DNA from: an uncultured delta proteobacterium
GTDB lineage: Bacteria > Desulfobacterota > Binatia > UBA9968
Assembly (NCBI GenBank): GCA_963804165.1
Contig: CAWDPO010000011.1
Coordinates: 32,001-96,000 of the forward strand
Direction: 5' to 3'
Length of the DNA stretch: 64,000 bases
The stretch's first letter is position 1. Every line of letters begins with the position of its first letter. Below the pieces are notes generated by a model. The model made no database searches. It saw only the letters and a program-made list of their open reading frames with translations, and was not told the origin of the DNA. Of this stretch, positions 19,241 through 54,686 are shown piece by piece. A program made the translations under genes and the position numbers.

Positions 19241-20527
19241 GTGGAACTAGAGCTTTTCGATTTTCACATCGACGCGATTCAGTGGGGAGATCGAACCTCG
19301 CTTGCGGGAGGGCAACTTAGTGTCAGCCTTGCCGAGATTCAAGAGCAGATCAAGGACTTGACCAGAAATATAAAATTGACCGCTGAACTCGCCCGTCCCG
19401 GCGAATCCAAGAGAATCGTGCATGTCCTCGACACCCTGATCCCGATCAGGAAAGTTCATGACGACCTTTGCACGTTTCCCGGTATCGATGTGCCGGCGCG
19501 GCTCGTGGGAACGGGACAGACTCAGCGGCTGCGCAACGTGCTGGTTACCATCGCGGGAAGTTTTCCCCATCCGGAGGCGATGACTCCGATCGAGAAACCC
19601 CGTGAAGGTATAATCGACATGACAGGCGTCGGGGCGCGTTACTCGCATGGATCGGATTATTTTCATTTGGTTCTAACTCTCGACGGTGAACCAGCGCTTT
19701 CAAACATAGCATTTGACCAGGCGCTAAGGAACATTGGAGTGCGCATCGCCCGTTATCTTGCCGGAGCCGAAAAAAGTGGCGCGGCGCCGGAGCGAAAAAA
19801 AGTTCACCTTGCTCAAGTTCAGAAGAAGCTCCCGAAGATTGTTCTTATATACCAGGTTCAGAGCCAGATTCCTCTGGTTAGGACTTTTTACTACGGCGAA
19901 GAAATCTCGAAAACCCTTCCTTCATTCGTTCATCCGAATGAGTTCATCGATGGAGCGGTGGTGAGCGGCACCTATAAAAGCGAGCGAAAAATTCCCACTT
20001 CGCTGCATTGTGCGAACCCTTTTATCGAGGAGATGCTCAAGCGGCACGGCGGCGAGTTGGAGTTCCTCGGTGTGATTCTCTCGCGCGGATATAACGACAG
20101 CTTTGAGCAGAAAAAGAAAATGGGGCTGTGGAGCGCTCGCTTGGCCAGATGTTTGGGCGCTGACGGCGCCGTGGCGATGATGGAGGGAACCGGCAATACG
20201 ACCGTCGATTTTATGCAAACCGTCAAAGCTTGCGAAGCGGAAGGGATTAAGACCGTAGCGGTTCTGCACGAGGATAACGGCGCCAAAGGCTATGAAAGGC
20301 CGCTGGTCGATCATCCGCGCGAAGCCGACGCGATGATCAGCCGTGGCAACCGCTCCGAGAAATTGGTTCTTGCCCCACTCGACCAGGTCATCGGAGGAAA
20401 GGAGATCGACCTCCATCTTAAACTCAAACACGATCCGCATAAGCCACTGTTTTTCGACCCGACGATCTTTTTCGGTGCGCATTGTCAGATGGGAGCCAGC
20501 GGCTTTCGTGCTGCCTTTGAAAGCTGA
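19241..20527 (+). CDS. Glycine/sarcosine/betaine reductase component B alpha/beta-like subunit (GrdE/GrdI-like)
   Basis: ELARPGESKRI, GIIDMTG, HPNEFIDGAVVSG, LGADGA, EADAMIS; 428 aa. Confidence 0.85.
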   Translation: MELELFDFHIDAIQWGDRTSLAGGQLSVSLAEIQEQIKDLTRNIKLTAELARPGESKRIVHVLDTLIPIRKVHDDLCTFPGIDVPARLVGTGQTQRLRNVLVTIAGSFPHPEAMTPIEKPREGIIDMTGVGARYSHGSDYFHLVLTLDGEPALSNIAFDQALRNIGVRIARYLAGAEKSGAAPERKKVHLAQVQKKLPKIVLIYQVQSQIPLVRTFYYGEEISKTLPSFVHPNEFIDGAVVSGTYKSERKIPTSLHCANPFIEEMLKRHGGELEFLGVILSRGYNDSFEQKKKMGLWSARLARCLGADGAVAMMEGTGNTTVDFMQTVKACEAEGIKTVAVLHEDNGAKGYERPLVDHPREADAMISRGNRSEKLVLAPLDQVIGGKEIDLHLKLKHDPHKPLFFDPTIFFGAHCQMGASGFRAAFES

Positions 20528-20539
20528 GATGAAACCAAA

Positions 20540-21844
20540 ATGATCAAAGTTTTACACTATCTCAATCAATTTTTTGCCGGCATCGGCGGTGAGGAGAAAG
20601 CCGGACAGGAATTTTTCTTTCTGCCGAAGCCCGCCGGACCCGGTGTCCTGCTCCGCGACCTACTGAAGAACCAGGACATTGAGTATGCAACGGTGGTCTG
20701 CGGCGACAACTATTTTCATGAACATGAAGAAGCTGTTCTCGCTTCTTTGACGGAAGTGATGGCGCAGTTTGCGCCGGACCTGTTTGTCGCCGGTCCGGCT
20801 TTTCATGCGGGGAGATACGGGCTTGCCTGCGCCAAAACCGCCAGCTTCGTGCGCGAGCGTTGGGGCGTGCCGGCGCTGACAGGGCTCTATGAAGAAAATC
20901 CGGGAACGAAGGAAGTCGGCCGGCATGTCTTGGTGATCCAGACGGGTTCGTCGGCTGCTTCGATGCAAACCGCCATTAAGCGGTTCGCCGATCTGGCGGT
21001 GCTTTTGCTCCACAAGAACGTTGAAAACCTCGAGGCCTTCAAAGAGGAATTTTGTCTAAAGATCCCGCGGCGATTTACCGTTCAAGCCGCTGCTCCCGAC
21101 AGCGTACGAGCAGTGGAGATGCTGCTAGCTAAGCTGGGTGGCGCGGCTTTCGAGAGCGAGATCCCGCGAATCGAGGTGGCGCCCCATCCGGTTCCCGCCG
21201 CGATTCAAGATCTCTCTCAGGCAACTCTCGCCATGGTGACGGAAGGCGGTTTGGTGCCATTAGGCAATCCCGACCGGCTGGAAAGCTCGCGCGGAACGAA
21301 GTACTTCAAGTACTCGATCAAAGAACGCGACGACTTGAAACCGGGCGAGTTCGAAGCCATGCATACCGGTTACGACACCTCCACGGTCAACGCTGATCCC
21401 GACCGGCTTATTCCCGTAGACGCCATGCGGACATTGGAACGCGCCGGGAATTTCGGCAGACTTCACGATTACTATTATGTCACGACCGGAACCGGCGCCA
21501 TGCCTGCCAAGATGCAGGAGCTCGGCGCAGGGATCGCCCAGGAGCTTTCGGCCTCGGGTGTAAACGGAGTCGTTCTCACTGCGACGTGAGGGACCGGCAC
21601 GCGTAGCGGCGCTACGATCGCAAAAGAAATTGAGCGGAGAGGAATTCCGGTGGTGCTCATCACCTGTCTCGCCAATGTGGCAACGCAAGTCGGGGCATAC
21701 CGGATCATGAGCGGAAATAAATTTCACTACCCGGTGGGCAACCCGGATCTTCCGGCCGCCGAAGAAGCGAAGTGGCGCGCTGAGTTGCTGAGCGCGGCGC
21801 TGAAAATTTTACAAACCACAGTCGATGCCCCGACTGTCTTCTAA
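20540..21844 (+). CDS. GrdB/GrdH-like selenoprotein B with Sec at TGA 21587-21589
   Basis: HYLNQFFAGIGGEE, AGPAF..GRYG, EENP; in-frame TGA then GTGTRSGATIAKEIERRGIPVV...PVGNP to TAA 21844; SECIS-like hairpin. Confidence 0.88.
21590..21616 (+). promoter_or_regulatory. Putative bacterial SECIS element
   Basis: 12 nt after UGA: stem CGTAGC / loop GGC / GCTACG. Confidence 0.75.
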
Positions 21845-21996
21845 ATCGAATGCTGTCATGGAACGTCGAGCATTGTTGTTGCTAGTCGCCGGCTTTGTTT
21901 TTGCTGTTAATTTCCTTTCAGTCAACGCGACGACGCGCGCGAATACCAAGATCCGCGTTGGTCTTCCCGATTTCACCAGCTGCTCTGGTCTTCATC

Positions 21997-23131
21997 CTAT
22001 ATAGCCGGCATCGCACTGGCCACGCCACGTTTTCGCATCTCGTCTTCGTAGTGTTTGCGAATGTACGGGTCTTCATCGGCGTATTCGATCAAGGTGCCGC
22101 CTTCTTTCACGTCTATATAAACGCCGTCCTCACTCCGCTTGTCGGCAATCTTAAAGCCGATGGGGTGAATCCGGCTGCCATAGCGAAGCGCGAGATGTCG
22201 CGCCGGCTCGGGGCCGGTATTAAAATGTTGATGGAACCATCCCCCCGGCGGGCAATAGACACTGCCGGCTTTCCATTTCACCTCGACGATTTCGTCCCCG
22301 CGGCCCGCTTCATAGGGCCCGAGGACCGAGTTCCTTCGACCATAACAAAACATAACCCGACGACTGCAAGCCCAACAGAATCGCGCCGGAACCGTGATAG
22401 TGCGCCTTGTGGTACCGAGCCGCCGGCCACTGTGCTAGATGGCCGATCAAACTATTGCCGGATAGCTCGAACTGAGTAATCCGCACCCCCGCTCCCTTGA
22501 TCTCGCGTTGATCCAAATTCGCCGACTGAATGTCCATGATGAAATTGGTTTCCCAGATATGCTGCATTCCCGACTCGTAGCGCTTTTGTCCGACATGAAA
22601 AAAATCGTCTACCCCCGCGTAACGATCGGCAAAATTATAGGGGCAGTTAAAAATGAACTCCTCATTATGCACGATGTCCATCACCAGCGGGGCGTTAGTG
22701 ACCGCCAAAAATTTCACCGGCAGGCGCCCGCCGTTGATCAACCGATGCCAGGTGTTGAGCGGTGGCGCAAACAAGCTCCACGGCCCCCATTCGAACATCT
22801 GCTTGCGCCCACCCTCTTGCCATACTTCCGTGGCGCCTTGGCCGTCGAGTATGCAGATCACTTCTTCGTAAAAATGCTTCTCGGCTAGAAGCGCGCCGCC
22901 GGCGGGAATCTCGCCGACATACATTCCGGTAACGCCTTCCATGCCGTATAGATTAATGAACGTCGCCTTGCCGCCGGTGCGTGTCCAGGGCGCCATGGCG
23001 ACTTCCCGGACATCCTCGAGGCCGTAACCATCGATCACCGGAATCCCCTGGCAAGCCATCCACTTGAAGTAAGTGGTTTTGTGAAACGCCGCCATCAAAG
23101 CTTTGATTCGTTCGTCCTGCGACATAATCAT
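21997..23131 (-). CDS. Bicupin protein, frameshifted near 22325
   Basis: EKHFYEE..PLNTWH first cupin; KAHYH..PPGGWFHQHFN second cupin; RBS AGGAG. Confidence 0.8.
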
Positions 23132-23580
23132 CCGGCTCCTTCGCCGACGGAATTTTTTCTTAGTGAATGTTTCGATTGCAGATTGATTCGGCCATTGCAT
23201 CGAAACGGAACGAAAACCTACCACAGTTCGATGAGATCAGGAAGGTTTCCGATGCGCAACGAAAAAGAGCCGGATCTTAAGCGTCAACGGCGCAACAGGT
23301 GATTGATTGGGTGCTGAAAGCGAAGATGATCGGAAAGGAGTTCGAGGATCTGGCGCGGATGCGGGATGCGTTGACACGCGCCAAATCAGCTCTGGGCGGC
23401 GCTAGACGACACAGGGGGCGTTGGTTTCGACGTTCCGCTTTACATCGTGCATGCTCTCCGCTCTCTTAGCGAGATCAAAGCTATCAAGATGATGAGTGTC
23501 GGTGCACCCGAGGCGATGGCTGGTCGCTCAGGGCGAAATCATGATCGACATCGATCGCAATTTCGCTACCGCGCAGGCGG

Positions 23581-25116
23581 TCAGCGCAAAACGAATGTTC
23601 CGACACGGCCGAGTCCGTCGGAACCCATGTCGCTATTTTGAACCAATTCCCCGCGAACCAATGACCACGCCGAGGATCTTGAGGTAGGGCCGACATCGTC
23701 GACGACGGTCCAGCCGGTAAGAGTCGTGCGGTTGAAGTCATCCCAAAGCAACTCCGCACCAGTGGCGAGGTCGACGACTTTTACGTCGTCGAAAGCGCTT
23801 CCCTGATTGCGCGAAGAGTAAAGCGCGACGGTGCCGTTTCGAAAACTTTGATCGTGAACAGAGAAAACCGGTTTACCGTCGATGTTGACCTTCAGAGTCG
23901 TTCCCTGGGCGATAAGCTCGATCAAATAGTTGTGACCACTGACGTACGGGACAGTATCCTCAGCGATAACCTTGAAAATACCGTTTTCACGTTTTATGAG
24001 CTGACGTCCCGCGGGTTCTTGCGCCCATGAAAAGCGATAATAGTTGTCTCTGTCCTGATAGCGGAACATGACCCCTAACGTGTCATCGTCGGCAGAGCGC
24101 ATTTTTAGCGCGACGCGATAGTCTTTCCAGCTTGCTTGAGTGTACAAAGCGTAGGTTCCTAATTGCCCGCCTCGCGTTGAAGAGATATTGCTGCTTTGCA
24201 CCAGGGCGCCCGTGGCTGCGGACCAATGGGATGGGCCGGCGGAGTCTCCCTCGTCGATAATGGTCCAGCTTCGATGTATGCCGTCATTGAAGTTGGCAGA
24301 GAGTAAGGTATTACCGCCGTTGAGGTCATCAACCACGATGTCGTCGAAGGCACTTCCCTGGTTGGAATACGAATATAACGCAATCGTCCCTTCCGGGATG
24401 GCGCTGTCGGTCACGGAGAACACCGAGCGTCCATCGATCAAGACCTTCAAGGACGAGCCCTGGGTGACGATTTGTAAAGTATACGTTTGCCCCACTGTGT
24501 ACGGCACTGAGTCTTTCGCCAATACCTGGAACACACCGCCGACACGTTTCTCAAGTCGCCGAGAGCTATTCCCCGCAGACCAGCTGAAACGATAGTAGTT
24601 GTTTGGATCCTGATAGCGAAACATTGCTCCTATGGAGTCGCTATCGGTGGAGCGGATTTTCATTGTCAGGCGATAATTGTTCCACCGACCGGCGCCCTCT
24701 GCGCCGGGTGAGGGATTTGAGCCCAGAGCCGTGGAGCCAGTCGAGATCTGGGTGGTGGGAGTCAAGGTCGTAGGAGCCAGGTTCGTGGAAGTGGGCTGAG
24801 AATTACTCGAAACGGTGGCGCACGCGCTGTTGGAAGTCAGCGAATCTCCCGCCTTGTTAAACGCCCGCACGCGATAGCAGTAAGTTGATCCGGCGTTTAA
24901 TCCTGAATCCGTGTAGCTTTCCGTATTGGCGCCCACCCGGGCGATTTCAACATACTTACCTGAGATCTGGCGCTCGATCGTAAATCCGACTTCCGTGGCA
25001 GAATTGTCTCGCCAGTTCAGGAGTAGAGTAGCGGACTCACTGATGCTGGCCCATAGCGTCGTGAAACCGAGGGTGAACAAAACAAAGGCCAAGAACGGCA
25101 GTGGAATTCGGAGCAA
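23581..25116 (-). CDS. Secreted FN3 + duplicated thrombospondin-C-like (ConA/LamG-fold) domain protein
   Basis: Signal peptide; WRDNS..YTDSGL..YCYRVRAFN; Thr/Ser linker; two D(S/D)D..G.MFRYQD..NYYRFSW repeats. Confidence 0.75.
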   Translation of the reverse strand: MLRIPLPFLAFVLFTLGFTTLWASISESATLLLNWRDNSATEVGFTIERQISGKYVEIARVGANTESYTDSGLNAGSTYCYRVRAFNKAGDSLTSNSACATVSSNSQPTSTNLAPTTLTPTTQISTGSTALGSNPSPGAEGAGRWNNYRLTMKIRSTDSDSIGAMFRYQDPNNYYRFSWSAGNSSRRLEKRVGGVFQVLAKDSVPYTVGQTYTLQIVTQGSSLKVLIDGRSVFSVTDSAIPEGTIALYSYSNQGSAFDDIVVDDLNGGNTLLSANFNDGIHRSWTIIDEGDSAGPSHWSAATGALVQSSNISSTRGGQLGTYALYTQASWKDYRVALKMRSADDDTLGVMFRYQDRDNYYRFSWAQEPAGRQLIKRENGIFKVIAEDTVPYVSGHNYLIELIAQGTTLKVNIDGKPVFSVHDQSFRNGTVALYSSRNQGSAFDDVKVVDLATGAELLWDDFNRTTLTGWTVVDDVGPTSRSSAWSLVRGELVQNSDMGSDGLGRVGTFVLR

Positions 25117-25137
25117 ACTACACCTCCTAAAGCCGGT

Positions 25138-33808: not shown

Positions 33809-34345
33809 TTAGCGCTCCAAGTACGCGCCGAGGATGTAATAAACGGTCTCAAGAGCCGGAACCAGATACCAATCGTCATGCGGGAATCGCATGACCAAGA
33901 AAAAGCCCCAGATGGAAAGTAATGTGCCGATGTATTGCGGATGATCGAGCAGCGAGAAGGGAAACTTTTGGCACCAGCGAACGGCGTAGCCGAACTTGTC
34001 ACCGTAGAACACTCCGACTTTGCCGAGTCGATAGAACACTCCGATGTTTAGAATTTGGCCCGTGACGATCAAGACCCCTCCTAAAGCAAGGGACGACACG
34101 CTTCCAGCGAGCGGCAAAATTGATCCGTTGCCAAAGACAAAGCACCAGCCGATGAACACCGCGCCTTGAAGCACCTTGAAGCAAAAAAAGAGGAACCGTA
34201 ACGCATCGACCGGATCCTCGATGCGTGCGAGCGCGGGACGCGCGCAAAGGACGCGAAAATCCGCGGGCTTGCGCCAGATCCATAGGTAGCAGATCCGCTC
34301 AAGGCTCAATAATATCGCGGCGCCGAAAAAGACCCATGGATTCAC
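33809..34345 (-). CDS. PEMT/PEM2-family phospholipid N-methyltransferase
   Basis: GQILN..V...LG..GVFYG.KFG, FPFS..HPQYIG; multiple TM segments. Confidence 0.8.
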   Translation of the reverse strand: MNPWVFFGAAILLSLERICYLWIWRKPADFRVLCARPALARIEDPVDALRFLFFCFKVLQGAVFIGWCFVFGNGSILPLAGSVSSLALGGVLIVTGQILNIGVFYRLGKVGVFYGDKFGYAVRWCQKFPFSLLDHPQYIGTLLSIWGFFLVMRFPHDDWYLVPALETVYYILGAYLER

Positions 34346-40820: not shown

Positions 40821-42326
40821 ATGCTTGATTCTCTGGCCAGCCTGGCCTTCGGTTTTTCGGTTGCCCTACAAGCGCAAAATCTTTTTTATTGCTTCATCGG
40901 GGTAACAATGGGGACCCTGGTTGGGGTTCTCCCCGGACTGGGTCCGACGGTGACGATTGCGTTGCTCCTGCCGGCCACCTTCCAACTCAATCCTGTTTCT
41001 GCCATTATCATGCTCTCGGGCATCTGTTATGGCGCCATGTACGGCGGCTCGACGACTTCGATCTTACTCAACATCCCCGGCGAAGCAGCTTCAGTGGTGA
41101 CCTGCCTTGATGGCTATCAAATGGCCCGTCAAGGCCGCGGCGGTCCGGCTCTTGGAATCTCGGCCTTCGGCTCCTTTATCGCGGGGACCATCAGCATCTT
41201 CGGCCTAGTCTTTCTCGCGCCGACCTTGGCCGAGCTTGGCCTCAAGTTCGGCCCGCCGGAGTACTTTGCCCTCATGGTCATGGGATTGACGGTCGTTGCG
41301 TACCTCGCGCGTAGGTCCATGGCTAAAGCTCTCGTGATGACTGTGTTCGGCATTGTTCTCGGATGCATCGGTTTAGATCCGGTGACTGCGACGCCGCGTT
41401 TTACTTTCGGCATGCTCGGGCTCGCCGACGGGATCAGTTTGCCGGCGATGGTCATGGGACTGTTCGGCATCGCCGAAGTTTTAGAGAATCTCGGCGTGCG
41501 CGCCAAGGCAGAAGTTTATTCCGGGAAGATTCAAGGACTCTTTCCCGACCGGGAAGACTGGCGGCGATCCGCGGGACCGATAGCGCGGGGCTCTCTTTTG
41601 GGATTCTTTCTCGGCCTGGTGCCCGGCGTCGGCGCGATCGTGCCGCAGTTTTTGAGCTACGCGTTGGAAAAAAAGCTCTCGGCCCATCCAGAGCGTTTCG
41701 GCAGCGGGGAAATCGAGGGTGTCGCGGCACCCGAAGCGTGCAATAACGCCGCCATGGGCGGAACTTTCATTCCGCTCTTGAGTCTGGGTATTCCTTCGAG
41801 CGCCACCACCGCCGTGCTGCTCGGCGCTTTGATGATCTACGGCCTGACCCCCGGACCTTTGCTGATCAAAAACTCGCCGGATCTTTTCTGGGGTGTCATT
41901 GCGAGCATGTATATCGGTAATGCGCTGCTGTTGGTTCTTAACCTGCCGCTTATTCCTCTGTGGGTGAAAATTTTGCAGATCCCCTATGCTTACCTCGCGT
42001 CTTTTATTATTTTGTTCTGCTTGATCGGCGCCTATAGTCTCAACAACAGCACCGCGGATATTTTTGTTGCCGTCCTGTTCAGTTTGATCGGGCTATTGTT
42101 AAAAAAATTTGATTTCGAGCCGGCGCCTTTGGTGCTGGCTTTTGTTTTGGGTCCCATGCTCGAGACCGCTCTAAGGCGCTCCCTGATATTATCGGACGGC
42201 AGCTTTGAGATCTTTCTCACGCGACCGATATCGGCCGCTTTTATACTGTTGGCTCTGGTTGCATTGACGGCGCCGCTGCTTGGCAAGAAGGTGAGGGTGG
42301 GACGTGGACTCAGTGAAGAAGATTAA
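40821..42326 (+). CDS. tctA: TctA permease
   Basis: [30 protein letters not shown]. Confidence 0.95.
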   Translation: MLDSLASLAFGFSVALQAQNLFYCFIGVTMGTLVGVLPGLGPTVTIALLLPATFQLNPVSAIIMLSGICYGAMYGGSTTSILLNIPGEAASVVTCLDGYQMARQGRGGPALGISAFGSFIAGTISIFGLVFLAPTLAELGLKFGPPEYFALMVMGLTVVAYLARRSMAKALVMTVFGIVLGCIGLDPVTATPRFTFGMLGLADGISLPAMVMGLFGIAEVLENLGVRAKAEVYSGKIQGLFPDREDWRRSAGPIARGSLLGFFLGLVPGVGAIVPQFLSYALEKKLSAHPERFGSGEIEGVAAPEACNNAAMGGTFIPLLSLGIPSSATTAVLLGALMIYGLTPGPLLIKNSPDLFWGVIASMYIGNALLLVLNLPLIPLWVKILQIPYAYLASFIILFCLIGAYSLNNSTADIFVAVLFSLIGLLLKKFDFEPAPLVLAFVLGPMLETALRRSLILSDGSFEIFLTRPISAAFILLALVALTAPLLGKKVRVGRGLSEED

Positions 42327-42774
42327 AAGAACGCTCGACACGGTCGGCGCGCTTTTCTGGTTTGTCTTGGCACTGGCAATATGTTACCGAGCCAGCTTAC
42401 TCGGCATCGGCAGCGCCAGCGAGCCGGGCTCCGGGTTTATCTTTTTTTGGTCCGGAGTGATCATGGCATTTCTCGCGCTGCTGATTTTTGCCGATTCTCT
42501 GCGGGTAGGCGGCGAAGATGGCGCGAAGTTTATTGGAATAAATTGGCCGAAAGTGTTGCTCGTTCTGGGGGCTATCCTCCTATATGGACTTTTACTGGAA
42601 AAGGTCGGCTTCGTCTTGACAACCTTTGCGCTGATGAGCTTTCTACTTTGGATCAGCGACGATACGAAGTGGCCGATTGCCCTCGCTGTTGCAGGTGCCG
42701 CCGCGTTGGGCAGTTTCGCGCTATTCGACCTTTGGTTACAGATCAGGCTTCCCAAAGGGATCTTCGGCATTTGA
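42304..42774 (+). CDS. tctB: TctB family protein
   Basis: EPGSGF, four TM segments, LQIRLPKG. Confidence 0.88.
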   Translation: MDSVKKIKRTLDTVGALFWFVLALAICYRASLLGIGSASEPGSGFIFFWSGVIMAFLALLIFADSLRVGGEDGAKFIGINWPKVLLVLGAILLYGLLLEKVGFVLTTFALMSFLLWISDDTKWPIALAVAGAAALGSFALFDLWLQIRLPKGIFGI

Positions 42775-42792
42775 CTCGAAACGGAGGAAACC

Positions 42793-43779
42793 ATGCGGTC
42801 GTCAGACAAAAGAATTTTGCTCATCTTAACTCTGGTTCTGGGTATTTCTTTGTTGCCGGCGATGGCTCGGGCGCAGGACAAATATCCCTCCCGGCCGATC
42901 GAAATGGTCGTCGCCTTTCCGGCGGGCGGCTTCGCCGATCTGACGGGAAGGATCTTCGCCGACGAAATGTCGAAGCTGCTCAACGTTACTTTTGCTCCCG
43001 TGAACAAAGGCGGAGCCACCGGCAGTCTCGCCGCCAGTGGTGTCCTGCGCGCGCCCAAGGACGGCTACAATCTGCTCGTCAATACCCTGGGGGGCATGGT
43101 GCTGGCGCCGATCGTCCTGAAAGATGTCGCCTACGATGCCCAGAAGGATTTTTATCCGGTTGCGTATATTACTTCCGCGCCGGACGGGCTTACGGTGCGC
43201 GCCGACTCTCCGTTCAAATCTATTCATGATTTGATCGACGCGGCCAAAAAGAACCCGGCAAAATTATCCTACGGCACGGCGGGGACCGGAGTCGGGGGTC
43301 ACTTCAACGCGGCGATCTTTGCGCACAGCGCCGCTATCAAAATTAAACACGTGCCGTTCAAAGGCGGCGGCGAGTATGTTCCATCGCTCTTGGGAGGACA
43401 CATCGATTTCGTCGTCGGCACCGCGATCGCTACGCTGCCCCAAGAGCAGGCGGGCAAACTGAGAACTTTGGCGTTTCTTAGCGACAATAAAATGCCCGCT
43501 CTACCCGGCGTCTCGACGGCTTCTCAACTCGGTATCAAGGGAGATTTTCTCGATAGCTGGGCGGGTTGTTTCGTCGCGACGGGGACACCGAAGGCCGCGA
43601 TCGACGCGCTCGTGACCGCCGCCGATAAAGTGCTCAAGTCCAAACCGTTCGCCGAACGGATCGAAAAGACCGGCGGCATCGTGCAGTACCTTTCGCCGTC
43701 TCAGTTTCAGTCGATGATCGAGAAAAACAAAAACAGCGCCATGGAAACAGCCAAGAGGGAGGGGCTGCTACCGCAGTAA
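42793..43779 (+). CDS. tctC: TctC/Bug substrate-binding protein
   Basis: YPSRPI..FPAGG..D, NKGGA, DGY, HVPFKGGGE. Confidence 0.92.
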   Translation: MRSSDKRILLILTLVLGISLLPAMARAQDKYPSRPIEMVVAFPAGGFADLTGRIFADEMSKLLNVTFAPVNKGGATGSLAASGVLRAPKDGYNLLVNTLGGMVLAPIVLKDVAYDAQKDFYPVAYITSAPDGLTVRADSPFKSIHDLIDAAKKNPAKLSYGTAGTGVGGHFNAAIFAHSAAIKIKHVPFKGGGEYVPSLLGGHIDFVVGTAIATLPQEQAGKLRTLAFLSDNKMPALPGVSTASQLGIKGDFLDSWAGCFVATGTPKAAIDALVTAADKVLKSKPFAERIEKTGGIVQYLSPSQFQSMIEKNKNSAMETAKREGLLPQ

Positions 43780-44021: not shown

Positions 44022-44747
44022 ATGGTTCCAAAGAAAATTTTTTACACCAAAGGAGTCGGGGTTCATAAGGAAAAGCTGGCTTCTTTTGAAATGGCGCTGA
44101 GGGTTGCCGGCCTGGCCCACTGTAATTTGGTCCTGGTTTCGAGCATCTTTCCGCCAGACTGCAAGATTGTTCCCAAGGAGGAAGGCTTAAAGCTGTTACG
44201 ACCCGGCGAGATCGTATTTGCCGTTTATGATCGAGAAAGTAACAACGAGCCGAATCGCCTCATTGCAGCTTCGGTCGGCGTGGCGATCCCCGCAGATTCG
44301 TCCGTGCATGGGTATCTTTCCGAGCATCATTCGTTTGGTGAAACGGACGAAAAAGCCGGCGAATATGCCGAAGACCTTGCCGCTAGCATGTTGGCGACCA
44401 CCTTGGGGATCGAATTTGATCCTGAATTGGATTGGGACGAGCGAGAGCAGATTTTTAAGATGTCGGGAAAGATCGTCCGTACCACCAATATCACTCAGTC
44501 TGCGGTTGGCAATAAGGATGGTCTCTGGACCACGGTGTTTGCAGCTGCGGTTTTTATCAATGACGAAAGCCTATCTTTTGACATCGGAAAGTCCGTCACT
44601 GTTAGCAATAAGGCTCCGCTTCAGGAAGAAGTCTTGAGGCAAACGTTACAGAGCCAGTCTAAAACGATCCAAGCCAACGACAAACTAGCGCAGCGTAACA
44701 TAGAGCAGCCTAGACTCGCTCCGGCGACAAAAAAGAGCCTTTCGTAA
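44022..44747 (+). CDS. pdaD: Pyruvoyl-dependent arginine decarboxylase
   Basis: SFEMALR.AG..CNLV.VSSIFPP self-cleavage site, GYLSEHH; about 60-aa C-terminal extension. Confidence 0.9.
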
Positions 44748-46632: not shown

Positions 46633-46636
46633 AACC

Positions 46637-49464: not shown

Positions 49465-49594
49465 CAGGGTTCTCGGGCATGATCAATTCAAGGAGGATTT
49501 GGAGCTTCTCATTTCCGGAGAGCATCCGGTAATACTCACAGTCGGCATCATCGGCTTCATCAAATGAGTCGAATTTTCGGACGACGATTTCCAT
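49403..49594 (-). CDS. Small hypothetical protein overlapping the nucleotidyltransferase start
   Basis: MEIVVRKFDSFDEAD..D.EYY..LS..EKL, 63 aa. Confidence 0.65.
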   Translation of the reverse strand: MEIVVRKFDSFDEADDADCEYYRMLSGNEKLQILLELIMPENPDAAVVERSARIHPLTQHQEC

Positions 49595-49733
49595 GAAATT
49601 TCCGCGTGTACCGCTTCGAATGGCCTTTAGGATAGCACACTCGTCAGACAATCGACAGTCGCGTCGCGTCAACCCACCCGGTAATTCAAATGCTGCCACG
49701 AGCAGGTTAGGCCCGAACAAATTACCGACCGAC

Positions 49734-50418
49734 CTAGTTCACCGCGAAGCAGTAAAACAAACCGTTTCCACCTGAGCTGCGCAACCCTTCTTGGCTGCAT
49801 CCGCCGCTGGCATCTGTCCCGCGGGATGGGTGAGACGAGTTCCACGATTTGGAAGATTCGCCCTCGCCGCGTCCTTGGCGGTCGTGGTGACCGAGCATCG
49901 CCGAGCCTGTGGTGCTGCTCGTCCAGTTGCGGCAGGTTCTGTCCTCACTCGCCGGAGAAGGCACGGCCGTCGGGTTGAGAGCCGGTGAGTATATCGTGCA
50001 TGTTCGGCTTGTCGCCGCGCGCGTTGATGGTTTCACCTTTCTCGCTAAGGGCGTTTTCTTTGTTGATCTTATTGTTGTTGCTGTGCAGATCATCGACGTC
50101 TTTGGCGATGACGACGCCTTTGGCGTTTTGCCAGGGACCTTTGCCGATGCGATCACGGGCGTTGACGGCGGGCTTGCCATCGGCTGCGCTGGTGCTCAAG
50201 TAGGCGTGCCAGGTGCGGTTGCCGGCACCGGCCGCTTGCGCAAGCGCTTGACAATGTTTGTCCGCGCCGGCCAAGCCGCCGAGATCGGCGCCCTTTCCGG
50301 AACCGGCGCTGGTGATGAAAAACGTCATGCTGCCTTTTTGTTCCTGCGAGCTGGCGACCCAGCTTAGCGAAAGCAGCACCAGCAGAACGGCCAGTGACAT
50401 CCAGACTTTGTTTTTCAT
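49734..50418 (-). CDS. Secreted endostatin/C-type-lectin-like protein, frameshifted near 49950
   Basis: GADLGGLAGAD..C..LA..AG..WHAYLS, HDILTGS; TC.NWTS..GHHDR..LFYCF in the second frame. Confidence 0.8.
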
Positions 50419-50727
50419 GCTTTCCTCCTTGATTGAGCTCGTGCGGGCATGACTCCCATCGTTTGGCGGACGATTCTATATCACACGAGCCGTGGGCGAG
50501 TGAAGATGGAGATAGAAAGAATGGCGCAAGGTCAGATAGAGCGGGAAACTCGTGGCGCACCTTAATTCATATTTGCCCGTCTTGGATATCGGCGACTACG
50601 GTCTGGTTAGGTGATAGTGTGCTCAGATATGACTCGTGATAAGTTGACGCTCGCTTCGGTGATTTGTTAAACGGATGTCAGCTACCATCGGACTTTGAAA
50701 GTCGACGCGACAAATAGGAATCGAGCC

Positions 50728-51802
50728 ATGAGTCGAATCGTTCAATATATTTTCGGGTGCTTTACTTTTTTGATTTTCCTCTTTACGGGCGTGTCGCCGT
50801 CGGTTTTCGCAGCGACCATCGCCGAAGTCGCGGCCAAAGTAAAATCGCTCAAGCCGCAAGAACAGACTCAACTATCTTTTCAAGGGCGCGCAGGCCGAAG
50901 GAGAATTGGTTTACTACGGCACGCTGCCGATCGACGAGTTTTTGCCGCTCGCGCGCGTTTTCAACTCTCGCTATCGGTCGATTGCGCTGCAGCATTACTT
51001 TTCACCGCGCGATGGCATACTCAGCCGCACTTTGACCGAGGCGCGGGCGGGACGCCACGCGGTCGATGTGATTCAGGTCGACCTGAGTTACGGTTATCAA
51101 TTGCTGACCGCCAATCTGGTACAGCCCTATGCGGTCCCCGGTGCGAAACGTTTTTACGAGGGCACTTACGATCCGGAGGGTTACTGGCACAGCATGTACT
51201 ATTTGACCACAGCGCTGATTTACAACACCAACGCCGTCAAGCCGGAACAGGCGCCGAAAAGCTATGACGAGCTACTTAGCTCCGCTTGGAAAGGCAAGAT
51301 GCTATTCGATCCGGAGGCGGGCTATATTCTGGCGGCTCTGGAAGAAAGCTGGGGGCGAGAAAAGGCAGTCGCTTACTTGTCGAAGCTTGCCAAACAAGAC
51401 TTGAGCTATCGACGCGGCGGCACACTGACGACACAAGTGGTGACCTCGGGCGAATATCCTCTCGGCATCGCGATCAACGGTGAAACTTCGGCGGCGATTC
51501 GCGAGAAGGGAGCTCCGCTGGGATTCAAAGTGCTGGCACCGACCATCGTCAAACCTGAAGGGCTGTTCTCGGCGAAGAACGCGCCCCATCCGCACGCCGC
51601 TTTGCTCTTTGTCGATTGGGTGCTCTCGGATGAAGCTCAGTCTTTTCTGGCGACGACGTTGGGCAAAGGCAGCGCGATGAAAGGGGTGCGCAGCAAGTTT
51701 AAGGATTTTCAAGTCAAGCCGGACTTCGTCGTGAGCCCCAAGCTCGGCGCCAATCTGCAAAACTATATTCAGGACTTCCGCAAGATTATGGGGGCGCCTT
51801 AA
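50728..51802 (+). CDS. ABC substrate-binding protein (AfuA/SBP_bac_6-like), frameshifted near 50880
   Basis: Signal peptide in frame 50695; YNT..V..P.SYDELL..WKGK, APHPHAA.LF.DW.LS. Confidence 0.82.
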
Positions 51803-51810
51803 TTTATCGG

Positions 51811-51924
51811 ATTCAAATAGTTCAAGCCGTTCAAAACGTTCCAACCCCCTTCTTCATCCTCCCCCGCGTCGCGGGGGAGGAAAGAGGTGGGGGAGTTGAA
51901 CTTCTGAACGATTGGAACTTTGAA
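51811..51924. repeat. Inverted 9-bp arrays enclosing a CCCTCCCC-type palindrome
   Basis: ATTCAAATA GTTCAAGCC GTTCAAAAC GTTCCAACC [cctcccccgcgtcgcgggggagg] gttgaac..tgaac..ggaac. Confidence 0.75.
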
Positions 51925-51932
51925 AAGGGATC

Positions 51933-53240
51933 ATGAAACTCGAATTAGCTGAATTTCCGGTAAGCAAAATTCGTCTGGGGCATCGTTTCCGCTACGACAA
52001 CGAAATCCTCGATGTCGACGAGGACGGGTTGATCGCCCTGGTGCTCGAGGATTCGCGAATCACGAATGCGACGCTCGCCGTGGCGGCGCCGGGTGAAAAG
52101 ACGCGCATCACCGGGATACGAGATATCGTCGAGCCGAGATGCAAAGTATCGGGCAGCGGGCAGGTTTTCCCCGGCATATTGGGTCCCGTCGAGAATGTCG
52201 GCGATGGACGAACCCATCGTCTTTCGGGCATGACCGTCATTGCCGCTGCGGAGTACGAAGGCACGATCCGGGCGGGAACGACAGTACAGCGAAGCGCGAT
52301 CCTCGACATGTCGGGGCCCGGCGCGGAAGTTTCCCGGTTCAGCTCGTACTTGCATTTGGTGTTGAGCTTTAAAATCGCTCCGGGCCTCGGTGAACTGGAC
52401 GCCCACAGCGCGATTCAATTAGCTGAGTATAAAGTCGCCCAGCGGCTGGCCCAGGGCACCGAAGGATTGTCGCCGGGAAGGATTGTCGTCTACGATCTCA
52501 GCGGGAAAGATCCGCAGCTCCCCAATGTGATGCTGATACAAGGGTGCATCACCGATCCGCAGCATGTTCATTCGGGCATCGGTTACTATGGGCTCTCGCT
52601 GCGCAATTCCATGGCCACGTTTGTCCATCCCAACGAGCTTTTTGACGGCGCGGTAACGGTGGATACGACGCGCTCGGGACGCGGCTACTATCCGACGACT
52701 TGGGACTGGCAGAACCATCCGTTGATTCTGGAGTTGTATGCGGCGCATGGCAAAAGCTTGAACTTCGGCGGGGTCATCATGCAGCGCATTCGCTTCGAGA
52801 CCCATCACGGCAAAGAAGTCGGCGCGCAGAACGCGGCGCGCTTGGCCAAAGCCATGGGCGCTGACGGCGCGCTGGTGACCTGGATCGGCGGCGGCAATGC
52901 ATTTGTCGACGTGATGCTGACCGTGCGCGCCTGCGAGCGCAACGGCATCAAAACGACGCTGGTGACCTATGAAAACGGCGGCAAGGAAGGCAAAGATAGC
53001 CCGGTGCTGTTCTATCTTCCCCAGGCCGACGCGGTGGTGAGCACGGGCAGTCTCGATAAAACGTTGGAATTACCGGCGATGGACCGAGTGGTCGGTCCCT
53101 ATGAACGGATCAAAATTTTTCCTTATCCCGGCGCCGCGACAGTGCCCGCAAGTGATGCGTTGTCGCTGGAAGCGCGAGACGTCATGATGGGCGGCGCGGA
53201 TATCTGGGGACAAGGACAATTTAGATGCGCGGAGTACTAA
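51933..53240 (+). CDS. Glycine/sarcosine/betaine reductase component B alpha/beta-like subunit (GrdE/GrdI-like)
   Basis: MKLEL, PGEKTRI..DIVEPR.K, G.GRTH.L, LDMSGPG, HPNELFDGA, QNHP, GADG, ADAVVSTG. Confidence 0.88.
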   Translation: MKLELAEFPVSKIRLGHRFRYDNEILDVDEDGLIALVLEDSRITNATLAVAAPGEKTRITGIRDIVEPRCKVSGSGQVFPGILGPVENVGDGRTHRLSGMTVIAAAEYEGTIRAGTTVQRSAILDMSGPGAEVSRFSSYLHLVLSFKIAPGLGELDAHSAIQLAEYKVAQRLAQGTEGLSPGRIVVYDLSGKDPQLPNVMLIQGCITDPQHVHSGIGYYGLSLRNSMATFVHPNELFDGAVTVDTTRSGRGYYPTTWDWQNHPLILELYAAHGKSLNFGGVIMQRIRFETHHGKEVGAQNAARLAKAMGADGALVTWIGGGNAFVDVMLTVRACERNGIKTTLVTYENGGKEGKDSPVLFYLPQADAVVSTGSLDKTLELPAMDRVVGPYERIKIFPYPGAATVPASDALSLEARDVMMGGADIWGQGQFRCAEY

Positions 53241-53250
53241 TTTTATAGGT

Positions 53251-53330
53251 GTTCAAAACGTTCAAGCCGTTCAAGCGCTTCGCTCCGTTCAAGACGTTTT
53301 GAACGAATTGAACGGCTTGAACGTTTGAAC
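53251..53330. repeat. Inverted 9-bp array pair between the grdE-like and grdB-like genes
   Basis: GTTCAAAAC GTTCAAGCC GTTCAAGC gcttcgctcc GTTCAAGAC | GTTTTGAAC GAATTGAAC GGCTTGAAC GTTTGAAC. Confidence 0.8.
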
Positions 53331-53345
53331 GCAGGAGTTTAATCC

Positions 53346-54686
53346 ATGATCAAGATCGCTCATGTCGTCAATCAATTTTTTGCCGGCCTCGGCGGTGAAG
53401 AAAAAGCCGATCTGCCCGTGGGCGTGCTCGAAGGCAGCGCCGGCGCCGCGCGGGCTTTGGAGTTGAAGCTCAACGGAGAAGCAGAGATCGCTTGCACGAT
53501 TTATGTCGGCGACAATTACTTCCATGAGCACAAGGACGAAGCGATTCCGGCGATATTGAATGCAGTGCGGGCAGCGGATCTGCAGATTGTTGTTGCTGGG
53601 CCGGCTTTCAATTCCGGGCGGTACGGTATGACTTGCGTCGAGGTCTGCAATGCGGTTGCCAACGAACTGGCAATTCCTTGCGTGACCGCCATGCACGAAG
53701 AGAATCCGGGCGTCGATGCGTATCGCGAGTTCAGCAATGCTCGGTTGTATTGCTTGCCGACGGCGGAGACGATAGCGGGAATGAATGATGCGCTGACGCG
53801 CTTGGCCGTGTTTGCGATTCGTCTCGCGTGCGCTGAGCAAATCGGTTCGGCAAGCAAGGAAGGCTACATTGGCCGCGGTATTCGACGCATCGAGAAAATC
53901 GATCAGCGTGGCGCGACACGCGCCCTCGACATGCTGCTCAAAAAACTAAAAGACCAGCCGTTTGAAAGCGAACTGCCGATGGAAGTTTGGGATGATGCCG
54001 TGGCTGCGGCGCCGCTGGCGCGGGTCAAGGACAGCAATATCGCCGTGGTGACAACGAGCGGCGTTGTCCCGTTCGGCAATCCGGATAAATTCAAGACCTA
54101 CCGCAATACCTACTGGCGCAAATACAATATCGCCGAGCTCAAAGAGCTCGAAGCGGGAAAATGGGAGGCGGTTCATGGCGGCTACAACGTCGCTTATATG
54201 AATCAGAACCCGCACTACGGCGTACCGCTCGACGCACTGCGCGCGCTGGAAGCGGAAGGAGCGATCGGCGCGGGTAAACTTTATCCCGCCTATTATGTCA
54301 TCCCGGGAAACCAGGGTTCGCCCACGGTCATGCGCCGCATGGGTCAAGAAATTGCCGCGGACTTGAAAAGAGACGGCGTCGAAGGAGTTCTTTTTGTCGC
54401 CACGTGAGGGACCTGCAGTCGCAGCGGCGCTGTGATGAGCAAGGAACTTGAGAGGGCGGGATTGCCGGTGGCGTTAATCAGCGCGATGTTTCCCGTGGCG
54501 CAGCAGGTGCGCGCCAACCGCATCATCAAAGGCGTCAGTATCCCACATCCATGCGGTGATCCGAATTTGTCCAAAGAGCTAGATGCGCGCCTGCGCAAAG
54601 AAATTATCCAAACCGCGCTTAAAGCTCTCGAATCAAAGGTTGAAGGGCCGACAGTGTTTTCTCCGCCAGTGGCTATAGGCGGGTAA
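53346..54686 (+). CDS. GrdB/GrdH-like selenoprotein B with Sec at TGA 54405-54407
   Basis: NQFFAGLGGEEKA, AGPAFNSGRYG, MHEENPG, HGGY; TGA then GTCSRSGAVMSKELERAGLPV..IPHPCGDP to TAA 54686. Confidence 0.9.
54408..54434 (+). promoter_or_regulatory. Putative bacterial SECIS element
   Basis: 12 nt after UGA: stem CGCAGC / loop GGC / GCTGTG (one G-U pair); same geometry as 21590-21616. Confidence 0.75.

What the first reader, a model, noticed from the sequence alone, without database searches (positions are those of the whole stretch)
19241..54686. Candidate undescribed system: stand-alone, non-pyruvoyl selenoenzyme B modules outside the Stickland operon
Seen: two separate two-gene modules 32 kb apart with no grdA, grdC, grdD, trxA/B or prd genes in the window. 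They sit instead among solute-binding proteins, a VOC protein, a bicupin and a B12-radical SAM gene. Both partner subunits lack the Cys that in GrdE/GrdG (GAIVSGN-C) is cleaved to the pyruvoyl group; here the segments read DGAVVSGTYKS and DGAVTVDTTRS. Established: the betaine reductase subunit GrdI is uncleaved because betaine needs no Schiff base. Inference: these are a diversified family of Sec-dependent C-N or C-S cleaving/dealkylating enzymes for onium-type or unknown substrates, possibly with a different acceptor than GrdA.
Basis: partly seen in the sequence, partly recalled or inferred. Interest (0 to 1): 0.8.

Follow-up and report, generated by a model that had tools for sequence, protein, structure and literature searches.

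The report
Extra selenoenzyme B modules, GrdD-less host
The window holds two real, selenocysteine-containing relatives of the substrate-binding part of glycine/betaine reductase that lack the usual self-cleaving cysteine; they belong to a large uncharacterised soil-bacterial expansion, most likely feed the genome's single GrdA-GrdC pair, and their substrates are unknown.

Summary
Two GrdE-like/GrdB-like gene pairs lie at 19241-21844 and 51933-54686. Each B gene has an in-frame TGA followed by a hairpin. Both partner subunits lack the Cys of the SGN-C processing site.

Neither pair falls in a characterised clade. Their scores against the NCBIfam GrdB, GrdH and GrdF models are 376-426 bits, and the cut-offs are 602-800.

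"Stand-alone" holds only for the window. The genome has four such modules, none with the Cys, and one grdC-grdA pair on another contig. No grdD was found.

In 121 genomes of the same order, E-like genes occur in 87, with up to 14 matches per genome. GrdA occurs in 87, almost always as one copy. Both occur in 77. GrdD occurs in 0. In relatives, grdC-grdA sits directly beside such modules.

The only recurrent neighbours are genes for exported solute-binding proteins (23 of 75 neighbouring ORFs).

Across the whole family, 138 of the 150 best cluster representatives lack the Cys.

Published precedents are the uncleaved GrdI and the far (fluoroacetate) operon. My reading is that these are uncharacterised, substrate-specific, non-pyruvoyl protein-B modules that feed a GrdD-less GrdA/GrdC core. 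The substrates remain unknown.

The parts
19241..20527 (+). E1: GrdE/GrdI-like alpha subunit of module 1, 428 aa. It has Tyr at the position of the processing Cys (DGAVVSGTYKS).
   Evidence: PF09338, 314 bits; GrdG 209.5 vs 780; FarE 108.4 vs 675.
20540..21844 (+). B1: GrdB-like selenoprotein of module 1, 434 aa. Sec codon at 21587-21589. The motif is TATUGTGTRSG, with neither Cys of the canonical UxxCxxC.
   Evidence: PF07355, 384 bits; GrdB 376.1 vs 602.2; GrdH 389.2 vs 775; GrdF 403 vs 800; TIGR01918 402.9 vs 65.45.
21602..21616 (+). SECIS-like hairpin 15 nt after the UGA of B1: 6-bp stem, GGC loop.
   Evidence: The same hairpin, with a U-A to C-G change, follows the UGA of B2 and of the C45 B3 gene. 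The individual z-scores are not significant.
17395..19239 (-). B12-binding radical SAM gene, divergent from module 1.
   Evidence: Radical_SAM, B12-binding; all NCBIfam equivalogs far below cut-off. This neighbour is conserved only beside the closest E1 orthologues: 4 of 5 loci at 83% identity or more, 0 of 8 at 68-72%.
50728..51802 (+). Exported solute-binding protein (SBP_bac_8 / PotD-PhnS type) upstream of module 2. In this assembly it is interrupted by a frameshift at about 50863-50870.
   Evidence: Intact orthologues with signal-peptide-like N-termini lie directly upstream of E2 in 11 of 13 assessable close loci.
51933..53240 (+). E2: GrdE/GrdI-like alpha subunit of module 2, 435 aa. It has Thr at the position of the processing Cys (DGAVTVDTTRS).
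   Evidence: 322 bits; GrdG 237.2 vs 780. More than 120 database clusters are 81-94% identical to it.
53346..54686 (+). B2: GrdB-like selenoprotein of module 2, 446 aa. Sec codon at 54405-54407. The motif is VATUGTCSRSG, keeping only the first Cys of UxxCxxC.
   Evidence: 379 bits; TIGR01918 453.2; GrdF 425.8 vs 800; GrdB 408.5 vs 602.2; GrdH 407.2 vs 775.
54418..54436 (+). SECIS-like hairpin after the UGA of B2: 8-bp stem, GGC loop.
54948..55751 (+). VOC/glyoxalase-fold protein downstream of module 2. It is linked to the module only in the nearest relatives.
   Evidence: It is present beside the module only in L030 and, in another order, in L006.
55831..56793 (+). NMT1/SsuA-type exported solute-binding protein.
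   Evidence: (SsuA_fam 55.7 vs 163.5). This family is the commonest neighbour of E/B modules in relatives.

Best explanation
Each pair encodes a substrate-specific 'protein B' of the glycine-reductase family. It combines an uncleaved, non-pyruvoyl alpha subunit (E1, E2) with a selenocysteine-containing beta subunit (B1, B2).

Shown:
- Both B genes carry a recoded UGA, followed by a hairpin.
- The genome has tRNA-Sec and SelB.
- The alpha subunits lack the Cys that canonical GrdE proteins carry at the SGN-C site.
- The proteins form clades of their own, outside GrdB, GrdF and GrdH.
- The family is expanded in this order of (by the titles of the closest records) Candidatus Binatia.
- The genome has four modules but only one grdC-grdA pair and no grdD.
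- The one recurrent neighbour of the modules is a gene for an exported solute-binding protein.

Inferred mechanism:
1. The binding protein captures a compound outside the cell, which is taken up by a transporter encoded elsewhere.
2. The compound is an alpha-substituted acetate whose leaving group needs no Schiff base, as with betaine or fluoroacetate.
3. The Sec of the B subunit attacks the alpha-carbon and becomes Se-carboxymethylated.
4. The carboxymethyl group passes to the Sec of the shared GrdA (CFVU motif).
5. GrdC processes it further, and a thiol-disulfide system re-reduces GrdA.

Because GrdD is missing, the last step may differ from the textbook one. In the textbook scheme (recalled) GrdD forms acetyl phosphate.
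For: Family and recoding.

No Cys in any of the four E-like proteins of the genome.

GrdA (189.7 vs 130) and GrdC (451.5 vs 450) lie on C24.

Adjacency of grdC-grdA to E/B modules in relatives:
- G047: grdC-grdA-E3-B3.
- G055: B, grdC, grdA.
- G409:C30: grdC, grdA region, B, E.
- G418:C122: grdA lies inside an array of modules.
Several Desulfobacterota loci also carry non-Cys E, B and GrdC side by side (L051-L054).

Co-occurrence:
- E-like genes in 87 of 121 order genomes and GrdA in 87 of 121, with both in 77 (my comparison of the tables).
- For E1 orthologues at 64% identity or more, 28 of 32 genomes have GrdA.
- GrdA was found in 13 of 14 Desulfobacterota carriers of B-like genes and in 4 of 5 genomes holding B2 orthologues.

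Copy numbers: up to 14 E-like matches per genome against one GrdA.

SBP linkage:
-.
- 23 of 75 neighbouring ORFs are binding proteins: NMT1 15, SBP_bac_6/8 8. No other family occurs more than twice.
- Signal-peptide-like N-termini were judged by eye.

Precedent: many substrate-specific B complexes feed one A/C system. FarE and GrdI lack the Cys and FarB lacks CxxC (PMC10838667, passages).
Against: No biochemical evidence exists, and the substrate is unknown. The binding proteins match no specific NCBIfam family.

Ten of the 87 order genomes with E-like genes show no GrdA. Nine of these also show no GrdC, although all ten have B-like genes.
- Most are fragmented MAGs (60-95% complete), and grdC-grdA is a single locus that one assembly gap could remove.
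- G348 is the exception. It is 98% complete in 7 contigs and has one E/B module plus a binding-protein gene, but neither GrdA nor GrdC.
- G348's module is of the type-4 kind. It is not of the B1 or B2 clade.

One MAG with B2- and B3-type modules (G061) also shows neither GrdA nor GrdC.

[quoted passage not shown] B1 has neither Cys and B2 has only the first.

In the textbook scheme GrdD is needed for acetyl-phosphate formation (recalled), and it was not found in 0 of 121 order genomes. The model did find GrdD in 4 of 18 other genomes.

Thr at the Cys position is kept in every E2-clade protein I extracted. Some other form of processing is therefore not excluded.

G000 is a MAG (81% complete, 5% contamination).
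Confidence: 0.6

Rival explanations
1. The modules work without GrdA and GrdC. They would resemble D-proline reductase PrdAB: Sec attacks the substrate and a nearby thiol or an external dithiol resolves the selenoether, giving a reduced product and no acyl transfer. Alternatively they use another acceptor.
For: B2 keeps a Cys three residues after Sec (UGTC), which could act as a resolving thiol.

G348 (98% complete, 7 contigs) has an E/B module plus a binding-protein gene with no GrdA or GrdC.

Nine further genomes with E/B-like genes, and G061, show neither.

GrdD was found in none of 121 order genomes, so the textbook downstream path is incomplete in any case.

B1 lacks both Cys of the UxxCxxC motif, which is said to meet GrdA.
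Against: GrdA is present in 77 of 87 order genomes with E-like genes, and in 28 of 32 with E1 orthologues.

grdC-grdA is physically adjacent to non-Cys modules in several relatives.

The one near-closed exception carries a different module type (type 4), not B1 or B2.

B1 and B3 have no Cys near Sec with which to resolve a selenoether on their own.

Scores against PrdA and PrdB are far below cut-off.
Confidence: 0.17
2. They are ordinary betaine reductases (GrdHI) or sarcosine or glycine reductases that merely diverged in a distant phylum. Function would be conventional and only the sequence unusual.
For: The alpha subunit without the Cys is what is described for GrdI (PMC10838667, passage).

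The Pfam families match fully.

B1 has TTGTGA where a published GrdF motif has TTGTGT.

Acetate kinase is present (365.5 vs 293.4).
Against: Scores against NCBIfam GrdH are 389 and 407 (cut-off 775), against GrdF 403 and 426 (cut-off 800), and against GrdB 376 and 408 (cut-off 602).

The three scores are nearly equal, which fits separate clades.

The published GrdB and GrdF motifs fail at several positions.

B1 and B2 each sit on a long, fully supported branch of their own in a quick ML tree.

A genome with four modules, and relatives with up to 14, cannot all serve three substrates.

No OpuAC-type betaine-binding protein was seen among 75 neighbouring ORFs.
Confidence: 0.1
3. The modules are decaying relics or assembly artefacts without function.
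For: This assembly has frameshifts in the neighbouring binding-protein gene, in grdC, in the fourth module on C10 and in a second ackA copy.
Against: All four window ORFs are intact.

E2 has more than 120 database clusters at 81-94% identity.

E1 and B1 have orthologues at 64-87% identity in about 32 genomes.

The TGA and the clade-specific motifs around it are kept in all 51 B sequences extracted. The extraction required a TGA there, and partial or frameshifted loci were left out.
Confidence: 0.03

Closest known systems
Betaine reductase protein B (GrdH selenoprotein + uncleaved GrdI), Peptoclostridium/Eubacterium acidaminophilum
   Same: It is a two-gene B module with Sec in the GrdB-like subunit. 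The partner subunit has no processing Cys, so no pyruvoyl group is expected. It is one of several B complexes sharing one GrdA and protein C (PMC10838667, passages).
   Different: B1 and B2 score 389 and 407 bits against the NCBIfam GrdH model, whose cut-off is 775. There is no grdD in the genome or the order. The associated binding proteins are of the NMT1/SsuA and PotD/PhnS types.
Fluoroacetate reductase far operon (farA-farC-farE-farB), Cloacibacillus porcorum
   Same: It is a B/E pair encoded away from grdA/C. FarE lacks the processing cysteines and FarB lacks the CxxC after Sec. It is predicted to hand a carboxymethyl-selenoether to the shared GrdA/C. It has a radical SAM gene next door and lies in a genome with eight grdB genes (PMC10838667, passages).
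   Different: E1 and E2 score 108 and 124 bits against NCBIfam FarE, whose cut-off is 675. The far operon has an MFS antiporter rather than binding proteins. Its radical SAM protein is not described as B12-binding, whereas here the radical SAM neighbour is kept only in the closest orthologues. The host is an anaerobic Synergistota bacterium with grdD shown in its figure legend.
Glycine reductase protein B (GrdB + GrdE proprotein)
   Same: The Pfam families are the same (PF07355, PF09338) and the Sec lies in the same place (..TUG..). Both depend on GrdA and protein C.
   Different: Canonical partners read DGAI[VIT]SGN-C, and canonical B subunits read UGTCTRC (L041-L046). Here the alpha subunits have Tyr or Thr at the Cys position, and the B subunits read UGTGTRS and UGTCSRS. 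GrdB model scores are 376 and 408 against a cut-off of 602.2. The published GrdB motif is not met.
D-proline reductase PrdA/PrdB
   Same: It is a distant homologue: PrdB matches the C-terminal half of the B proteins and PrdA matches part of the E proteins. It is a Sec-dependent reductive C-N cleavage.
   Different: Scores are 85-88 bits against 300 (PrdB) and 18-24 bits against 700 (PrdA). PrdA is pyruvoyl-dependent. By recall, Prd needs no GrdA or protein C.

Membership tests
Pfam GRDB (PF07355) / Gly_reductase (PF09338) | Score above the gathering cut-off (22 / 22.2 bits). | tested here: met
   B1 384.1, B2 378.7; E1 314.3, E2 321.6.
NCBIfam TIGR01918, 'glycine/betaine/sarcosine/D-proline family reductase selenoprotein B' (subfamily) | Score of 65.45 bits or more. 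| tested here: met
   B1 402.9, B2 453.2. This is the only model with a curated cut-off that they pass.
Glycine reductase selenoprotein B, GrdB (TIGR01917) | Score of 602.2 bits or more. | tested here: not met
   B1 376.1, B2 408.5. Positive controls L041 (628.3) and L042 (611.6) pass.
Glycine reductase selenoprotein B, GrdB | UxxCxxC around Sec (PMC13188914, passage) and the GrdB motif AHGGxD[QTAP]x8RV[IL]PxD...TxGNxTxV (bioRxiv 10.1101/2021.04.20.440570, Methods passage). | tested here: not met
   B1 reads UGTGTRS and MHTGYDT..DRLIPVD..TTGTGAMP. B2 reads UGTCSRS and VHGGYNV..HYGVPLD..IPGNQGSP. L042 fits the motif.
Glycine/sarcosine reductase alpha proprotein (GrdE/GrdG) | Cys at the processing site, which becomes the pyruvoyl group (SGN-C). 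| tested here: not met
   E1 has Tyr and E2 has Thr at that column. Five reference E proteins have SGNC. GrdG model scores are 209.5 and 237.2 against 780.
Betaine reductase GrdH (NF040795) | Score of 775 bits or more. | tested here: not met
   B1 389.2, B2 407.2.
Betaine reductase GrdH/GrdI | Partner subunit is not a proprotein (no processing Cys). | tested here: met
   The feature is not specific to this family: 138 of the 150 best family representatives also lack the Cys.
Sarcosine reductase GrdF (NF040794) | Score of 800 bits or more. | tested here: not met
   B1 403, B2 425.8.
Fluoroacetate reductase FarE (NF053623) | Score of 675 bits or more. | tested here: not met
   E1 108.4, E2 124.3.
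D-proline reductase PrdA/PrdB (TIGR04480/TIGR04483) | Scores of 700 / 300 bits or more. | tested here: not met
   E1 24, E2 17.6; B1 88.4, B2 85.1.
Glycine-reductase-type system (proteins A, B, C) | Selenoprotein A (GrdA, CxxU) encoded in the genome. | tested here: met
   C24:33480-33917, 189.7 bits against 130, CFVU motif with in-frame TGA.
Glycine-reductase-type system (proteins A, B, C) | Protein C beta subunit, GrdC. | tested here: met
   451.5 bits against 450, next to grdA. In this assembly the match breaks at model position 414 of 477 and continues in another frame. Relatives score 486-615.
Glycine-reductase-type system (proteins A, B, C) | Protein C alpha subunit, GrdD. | tested here: not met
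   No match above 23 bits in G000. None in 5 relatives, including two single-contig genomes. None in 121 order genomes. The model finds GrdD at 478-544 bits in 4 of 18 other genomes.
Glycine-reductase-type system (proteins A, B, C) | Carboxymethyl transfer from B to GrdA; thioredoxin-dependent turnover. | not testable with these tools
   This needs biochemistry.
Bacterial selenoprotein | In-frame UGA with conserved downstream coding sequence and a hairpin; tRNA-Sec and SelB in the genome. | tested here: met
   hairpin 15 nt after the UGA; tRNA-Sec on C24; SelB 357.2 against 242.25. The TGA is kept in the orthologues.

The most novel reading that the evidence does not exclude
Soil Binatia may carry a plug-in catabolic network built from cassettes of an exported binding protein plus a non-pyruvoyl Sec enzyme. 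There are up to 14 E-like matches per genome, and arrays of three or four modules on one contig. Each cassette would serve a different alpha-substituted acetate: onium, sulfonio, sulfo, halo or something unforeseen.

All cassettes would feed a minimal GrdA-GrdC core that has no GrdD. That core would therefore end in something other than the textbook acetyl-phosphate step, for example acetyl transfer to CoA by the FabH-like GrdC.

At least one cassette type would work with no GrdA or GrdC at all, as suggested by G348.
Probability: 0.2. Interest if true: 0.8.

Novelty: new variant of a known kind. Interest (0 to 1): 0.58.

Why it matters
The glycine-reductase family is known almost entirely from strict anaerobes that ferment amino acids, and only a handful of substrates are established: glycine, sarcosine, betaine, proline and, by prediction, fluoroacetate.

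Most of the family's sequence diversity lacks the pyruvoyl-forming Cys. Of the 150 best representatives of 548 clusters at E <= 1e-30, 138 lack it.

One order of common soil bacteria has multiplied such modules next to dedicated binding proteins, on a background that lacks GrdD.

If the modules have distinct substrates, this is a sizeable unexplored set of selenium-dependent C-X bond-cleaving enzymes in soils. The adjacent binding proteins offer a direct experimental handle, through ligand screening, for finding those substrates.

The lack of GrdD also asks how the carboxymethyl group on GrdA is finally released.

Tried and rejected
- **PDB sequence searches.** E2 and B2 found no solved relative.
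- **Sequencing runs.** Only small shares were found in soil metagenomes, and no RNA holder is listed. I laid no reads.
- **Promoter and terminator scans.** Results around both modules were at chance level.
- **NCBIfam scans of neighbours.** The binding proteins, the VOC protein, the radical SAM protein and the downstream ORFs gave no specific name.
- **Cluster look-up.** Ten family representatives gave only generic names.
- **ESM Atlas.** It returned only PF09338 clusters, the first one Binatota.
- **Tree.** The careful tree search did not finish, so only the quick tree is used.
- **Reference sequences.** Placement against those clades therefore rests on NCBIfam scores and published motifs.
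- **Literature.** Searches found no paper on these modules in Binatia or on GrdD-less systems. The library is limited and supplements were closed. Supplementary Fig. S4 of the bioRxiv preprint 10.1101/2021.04.20.440570 (a complete COG1978 tree) and the supplements of PMC10838667 may bear on this.
- **Readings considered and rejected.**
  - Canonical GrdBE or GrdHI.
  - Pseudogenes.
  - A functional link to the VOC protein or to the radical SAM gene, because each is conserved only in the nearest relatives.
  - A GrdD substitute next to grdC-grdA, because none is conserved.

Full report
**What is in the window**

There are two gene pairs on the + strand.
- Module 1 is an E-like ORF at 19241-20527 (428 aa), followed after 12 nt by a B-like ORF at 20540-21844. 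The B-like ORF is complete (434 aa) only if TGA at 21587-21589 is read as selenocysteine.
- Module 2 is an E-like ORF at 51933-53240 (435 aa) and a B-like ORF at 53346-54686 (446 aa). Its TGA lies at 54405-54407.

Pfam assigns the E proteins to PF09338 (314 and 322 bits) and the B proteins to PF07355 (384 and 379 bits).

A short hairpin with a GGC loop starts 15 nt after the UGA in both genes. The same hairpin is found in the third B gene of the genome, with a U-A to C-G exchange in the stem. The single-sequence z-scores are not significant.

The genome has a tRNA-Sec and SelB (357 bits against 242). The recoding is therefore real.

**The missing Cys**

To obtain references without typing sequences, I searched 251 genomes of another phylum with the NCBIfam GrdB model.
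- Two loci pass its cut-off: L041 at 628 bits and L042 at 612 bits.
- Others score 367-581 bits.

In an alignment of the adjacent E proteins, the five E partners that could be read, of B proteins scoring 520 bits or more, have DGAI[VIT]SGN-C. Those with lower-scoring B partners do not.
- E1 reads DGAVVSGTYKS, with Tyr at the Cys column.
- E2 reads DGAVTVDTTRS, with Thr at the Cys column.

These states are clade-specific and conserved. E1 orthologues have Tyr, or Phe in one case. Every E2-clade protein extracted has Thr.

The B proteins also differ next to Sec. Canonical B proteins read UGTCTRC. B1 reads UGTGTRS and B2 reads UGTCSRS.

**Membership**

Against the NCBIfam models, only the broad subfamily model TIGR01918 is passed.

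| Protein | Model | Score (bits) | Cut-off |
|---|---|---|---|
| B1 / B2 | GrdB | 376 / 408 | 602 |
| B1 / B2 | GrdH | 389 / 407 | 775 |
| B1 / B2 | GrdF | 403 / 426 | 800 |
| E1 / E2 | GrdG | 209 / 237 | 780 |
| E1 / E2 | FarE | 108 / 124 | 675 |

The GrdB and GrdF motifs printed in the Methods of a preprint (10.1101/2021.04.20.440570, passages) fail at several positions in B1, B2 and B3.

In a quick ML tree of 51 B proteins, the groups are as follows. The careful search did not finish, and no characterised GrdH, GrdF or FarB sequences were available.
- The B1 clade has 9 rows and the B2 clade has 25 rows. Each sits on a long branch with 100% support.
- Both are apart from the group that holds the Cys-type references.

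**The rest of the genome**

G000 is a MAG of 7.5 Mb in 46 contigs, 81% complete. It has four E/B modules:
- the two in the window;
- one on C45, whose B3 scores 437-486 bits against the three models and also passes none of them;
- one on C10, which is broken by several frameshifts.

None of the four E proteins has the Cys.

There is one GrdA (189.7 bits against 130, CFVU motif). It lies directly after GrdC (451.5 bits against 450, with a frame break near its end) on C24. No GrdD was found. Acetate kinase is present.

**Relatives**

The closest loci to B2 (63-87% identity, 29 loci) come from MAGs titled Candidatus Binatia, 'uncultured delta proteobacterium' and similar.
- An SBP_bac_8-type binding-protein gene lies directly upstream of E2 in 11 of 13 assessable loci with B2 identity of 69% or more.
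- In the 63-68% group an NMT1-type binding-protein gene precedes B in 10 of 14 loci.

In 61 genomes sampled across the class, only 6 have GrdB-like genes. In 121 genomes of the order:
- 87 have E-like genes at E <= 1e-30 to E1, with up to 14 matches (G418), 11 (G409) and 8 (G380). This query misses E3-type proteins, so these counts are low.
- GrdA is found in 87 (85 over cut-off), as a single copy in all but three.
- Comparing the two tables by hand, 77 genomes have both, 10 have E-like genes only, and 10 have GrdA only.
- GrdD is found in 0 of 121. The same model finds it in 4 of 18 other genomes, so the blank is meaningful.

Three genomes flagged as unpublished (G401, G411, G378) enter only these tallies.

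grdC-grdA lies directly beside E/B modules in several relatives:
- G047 (a single-contig genome): grdC-grdA-E3-B3, with E3 and B3 67-73% identical to the C45 module of G000;
- G055;
- G409:C30;
- G418:C122, where it sits inside a module array.

**Exceptions**

Of the ten genomes with E-like genes only, nine also lack GrdC, and all ten have B-like genes.
- Most are fragmented. grdC-grdA is one locus, so an assembly gap would explain the joint loss.
- G348 is different. It is 98% complete in 7 contigs and has one module (the same type as the broken C10 module, UGSSTRC) plus a binding-protein gene, with neither GrdA nor GrdC.
- Some module types may therefore work without GrdA. This is not shown for the B1 or B2 clades: 28 of 32 genomes with E1 orthologues at 64% identity or more have GrdA.

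**Neighbourhood**

I fetched 20 loci around E-like genes in three genomes: 11 from G418, 7 from G409 and 2 from G351. One locus gave no E/B ORF in my ORF set. I then scanned the 75 ORFs lying within two positions of an E or B ORF.
- 15 match NMT1 and 8 match SBP_bac_6/8.
- No other family occurs more than twice.
- No ABC permease or ATPase was seen.
- The loci are paralogues from few genomes and so are not independent.

The binding proteins have hydrophobic, signal-peptide-like N-termini. I judged this by eye and ran no predictor. The window's own copy at 50728-51802 is frameshifted near 50863-50870.

The other neighbours are not consistently linked:
- The VOC gene accompanies the module only in the nearest relatives.
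- The B12 radical SAM gene accompanies module 1 in 4 of 5 loci at 83% identity or more, and in none of 8 loci at 68-72%.

**Family-wide view**

A profile of 14 E proteins, five of them Cys-type, found 2007 cluster representatives (50% identity) at E <= 0.001, 1361 at <= 1e-10 and 548 at <= 1e-30.

Among the best 150, the residue at the processing column is distributed as follows:

| Residue | Count |
|---|---|
| Cys | 12 |
| Tyr | 60 |
| Phe | 16 |
| Gap | 22 |
| Other | 40 |

The non-pyruvoyl state is therefore the majority state of the family's diversity. It is not a peculiarity of this window.

**Comparison with what is in print**

The far operon paper (PMC10838667, passages) makes the following points:
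- Many bacteria have several substrate-specific B complexes feeding a common reductase system.
- FarB lacks the CxxC.
- The operon contains a radical SAM gene.
- The genome has eight grdB genes.

The concept of extra, non-pyruvoyl B modules encoded away from grdA/C is thus known. The new elements here are:
- the clades themselves;
- their expansion in a soil lineage;
- the tight pairing with exported binding proteins;
- the complete lack of a pyruvoyl-type module in this genome;
- the GrdD-less core.

My searches found no paper on these points. Supplements were closed.

**Verdict**

The most likely reading (0.6) is that these are substrate-specific, uncleaved protein-B modules that hand a carboxymethyl group to the single GrdA-GrdC pair, with their substrates delivered by dedicated binding proteins. 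The substrate class and the last step without GrdD are inferences.

GrdA-independent action is the main rival (0.17).

Noticed in passing
G000:C24:33480-35322 (locus L002 9481-11626); order-wide: grdC-grdA occurs without any grdD. GrdD was found in none of 121 genomes of the order, and in 4 of 18 other genomes carrying Grd genes. One of those without GrdD is G236, which has a cut-off-passing GrdB, a Cys-type GrdE, GrdC and GrdA in a row. GrdD-less systems therefore seem common outside the classical anaerobes.
   Followed up: partly
L089 (G348:C2:2818000-2837900), 9278-12956: A near-complete genome (98%, 7 contigs) has one E/B module (E site DGALMFSYS, B motif UGSSTRC) and a divergent binding-protein gene. 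It has no GrdA or GrdC anywhere. The module is of the same type as the frameshifted fourth module of G000 on C10.
   Followed up: partly
L073 (G418:C122:1-19900) and L074 (G418:C237:1-17156): These are arrays of three or four E and B genes interleaved with NMT1-type and SBP_bac_8-type binding-protein genes. In L073 a second grdA copy lies inside the array.
   Followed up: partly
L003 6909-8408 (-); L034 13349-14848 (+); L039 1574-3088 (+): A 499-aa thioredoxin-fold protein (Thioredox_DsbH/DUF255) lies next to the E3/B3 'core' module in three genomes of three families of the order. It is a candidate redox partner.
   Followed up: no
window 50863-50870; G000:C24 near 34126-34166; G000:C10:43551-46093; G000:C43:239738-240950: Frame breaks occur in the binding-protein gene, in grdC, throughout the fourth E/B module and in a second ackA copy. 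These may be indel errors of the assembly or real decay. Split ORFs are also seen in several related MAG loci (L008, L027, L028, L030, L031).
   Followed up: no
window 51933-53240 and all E2-clade loci: Thr occupies the column of the processing Cys in every E2-clade protein extracted, followed by Arg or Lys. Whether it supports any self-processing is unknown.
   Followed up: no
window 44022-44747: This is a pyruvoyl-dependent arginine decarboxylase gene (PvlArgDC, 204 bits). It sits beside a histidine phosphatase, an Asp/Glu racemase and a split GntR/aminotransferase gene. It is unrelated to the modules.
   Followed up: no
window 40821-43779: These are the TctA (552 bits) and TctC (170 bits) parts of a tripartite tricarboxylate transporter. 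TctC-type binding proteins also appear near some modules in G418 (L075, L077).
   Followed up: no
L034 6680-7642 (+): A radical SAM / DUF3641 protein lies two genes downstream of the grdC-grdA-E3-B3 operon of G047.
   Followed up: no
L035 9927-11090 (+): In G029 an FMN-dependent alpha-hydroxy-acid dehydrogenase gene (373 bits) directly follows grdC-grdA.
   Followed up: no
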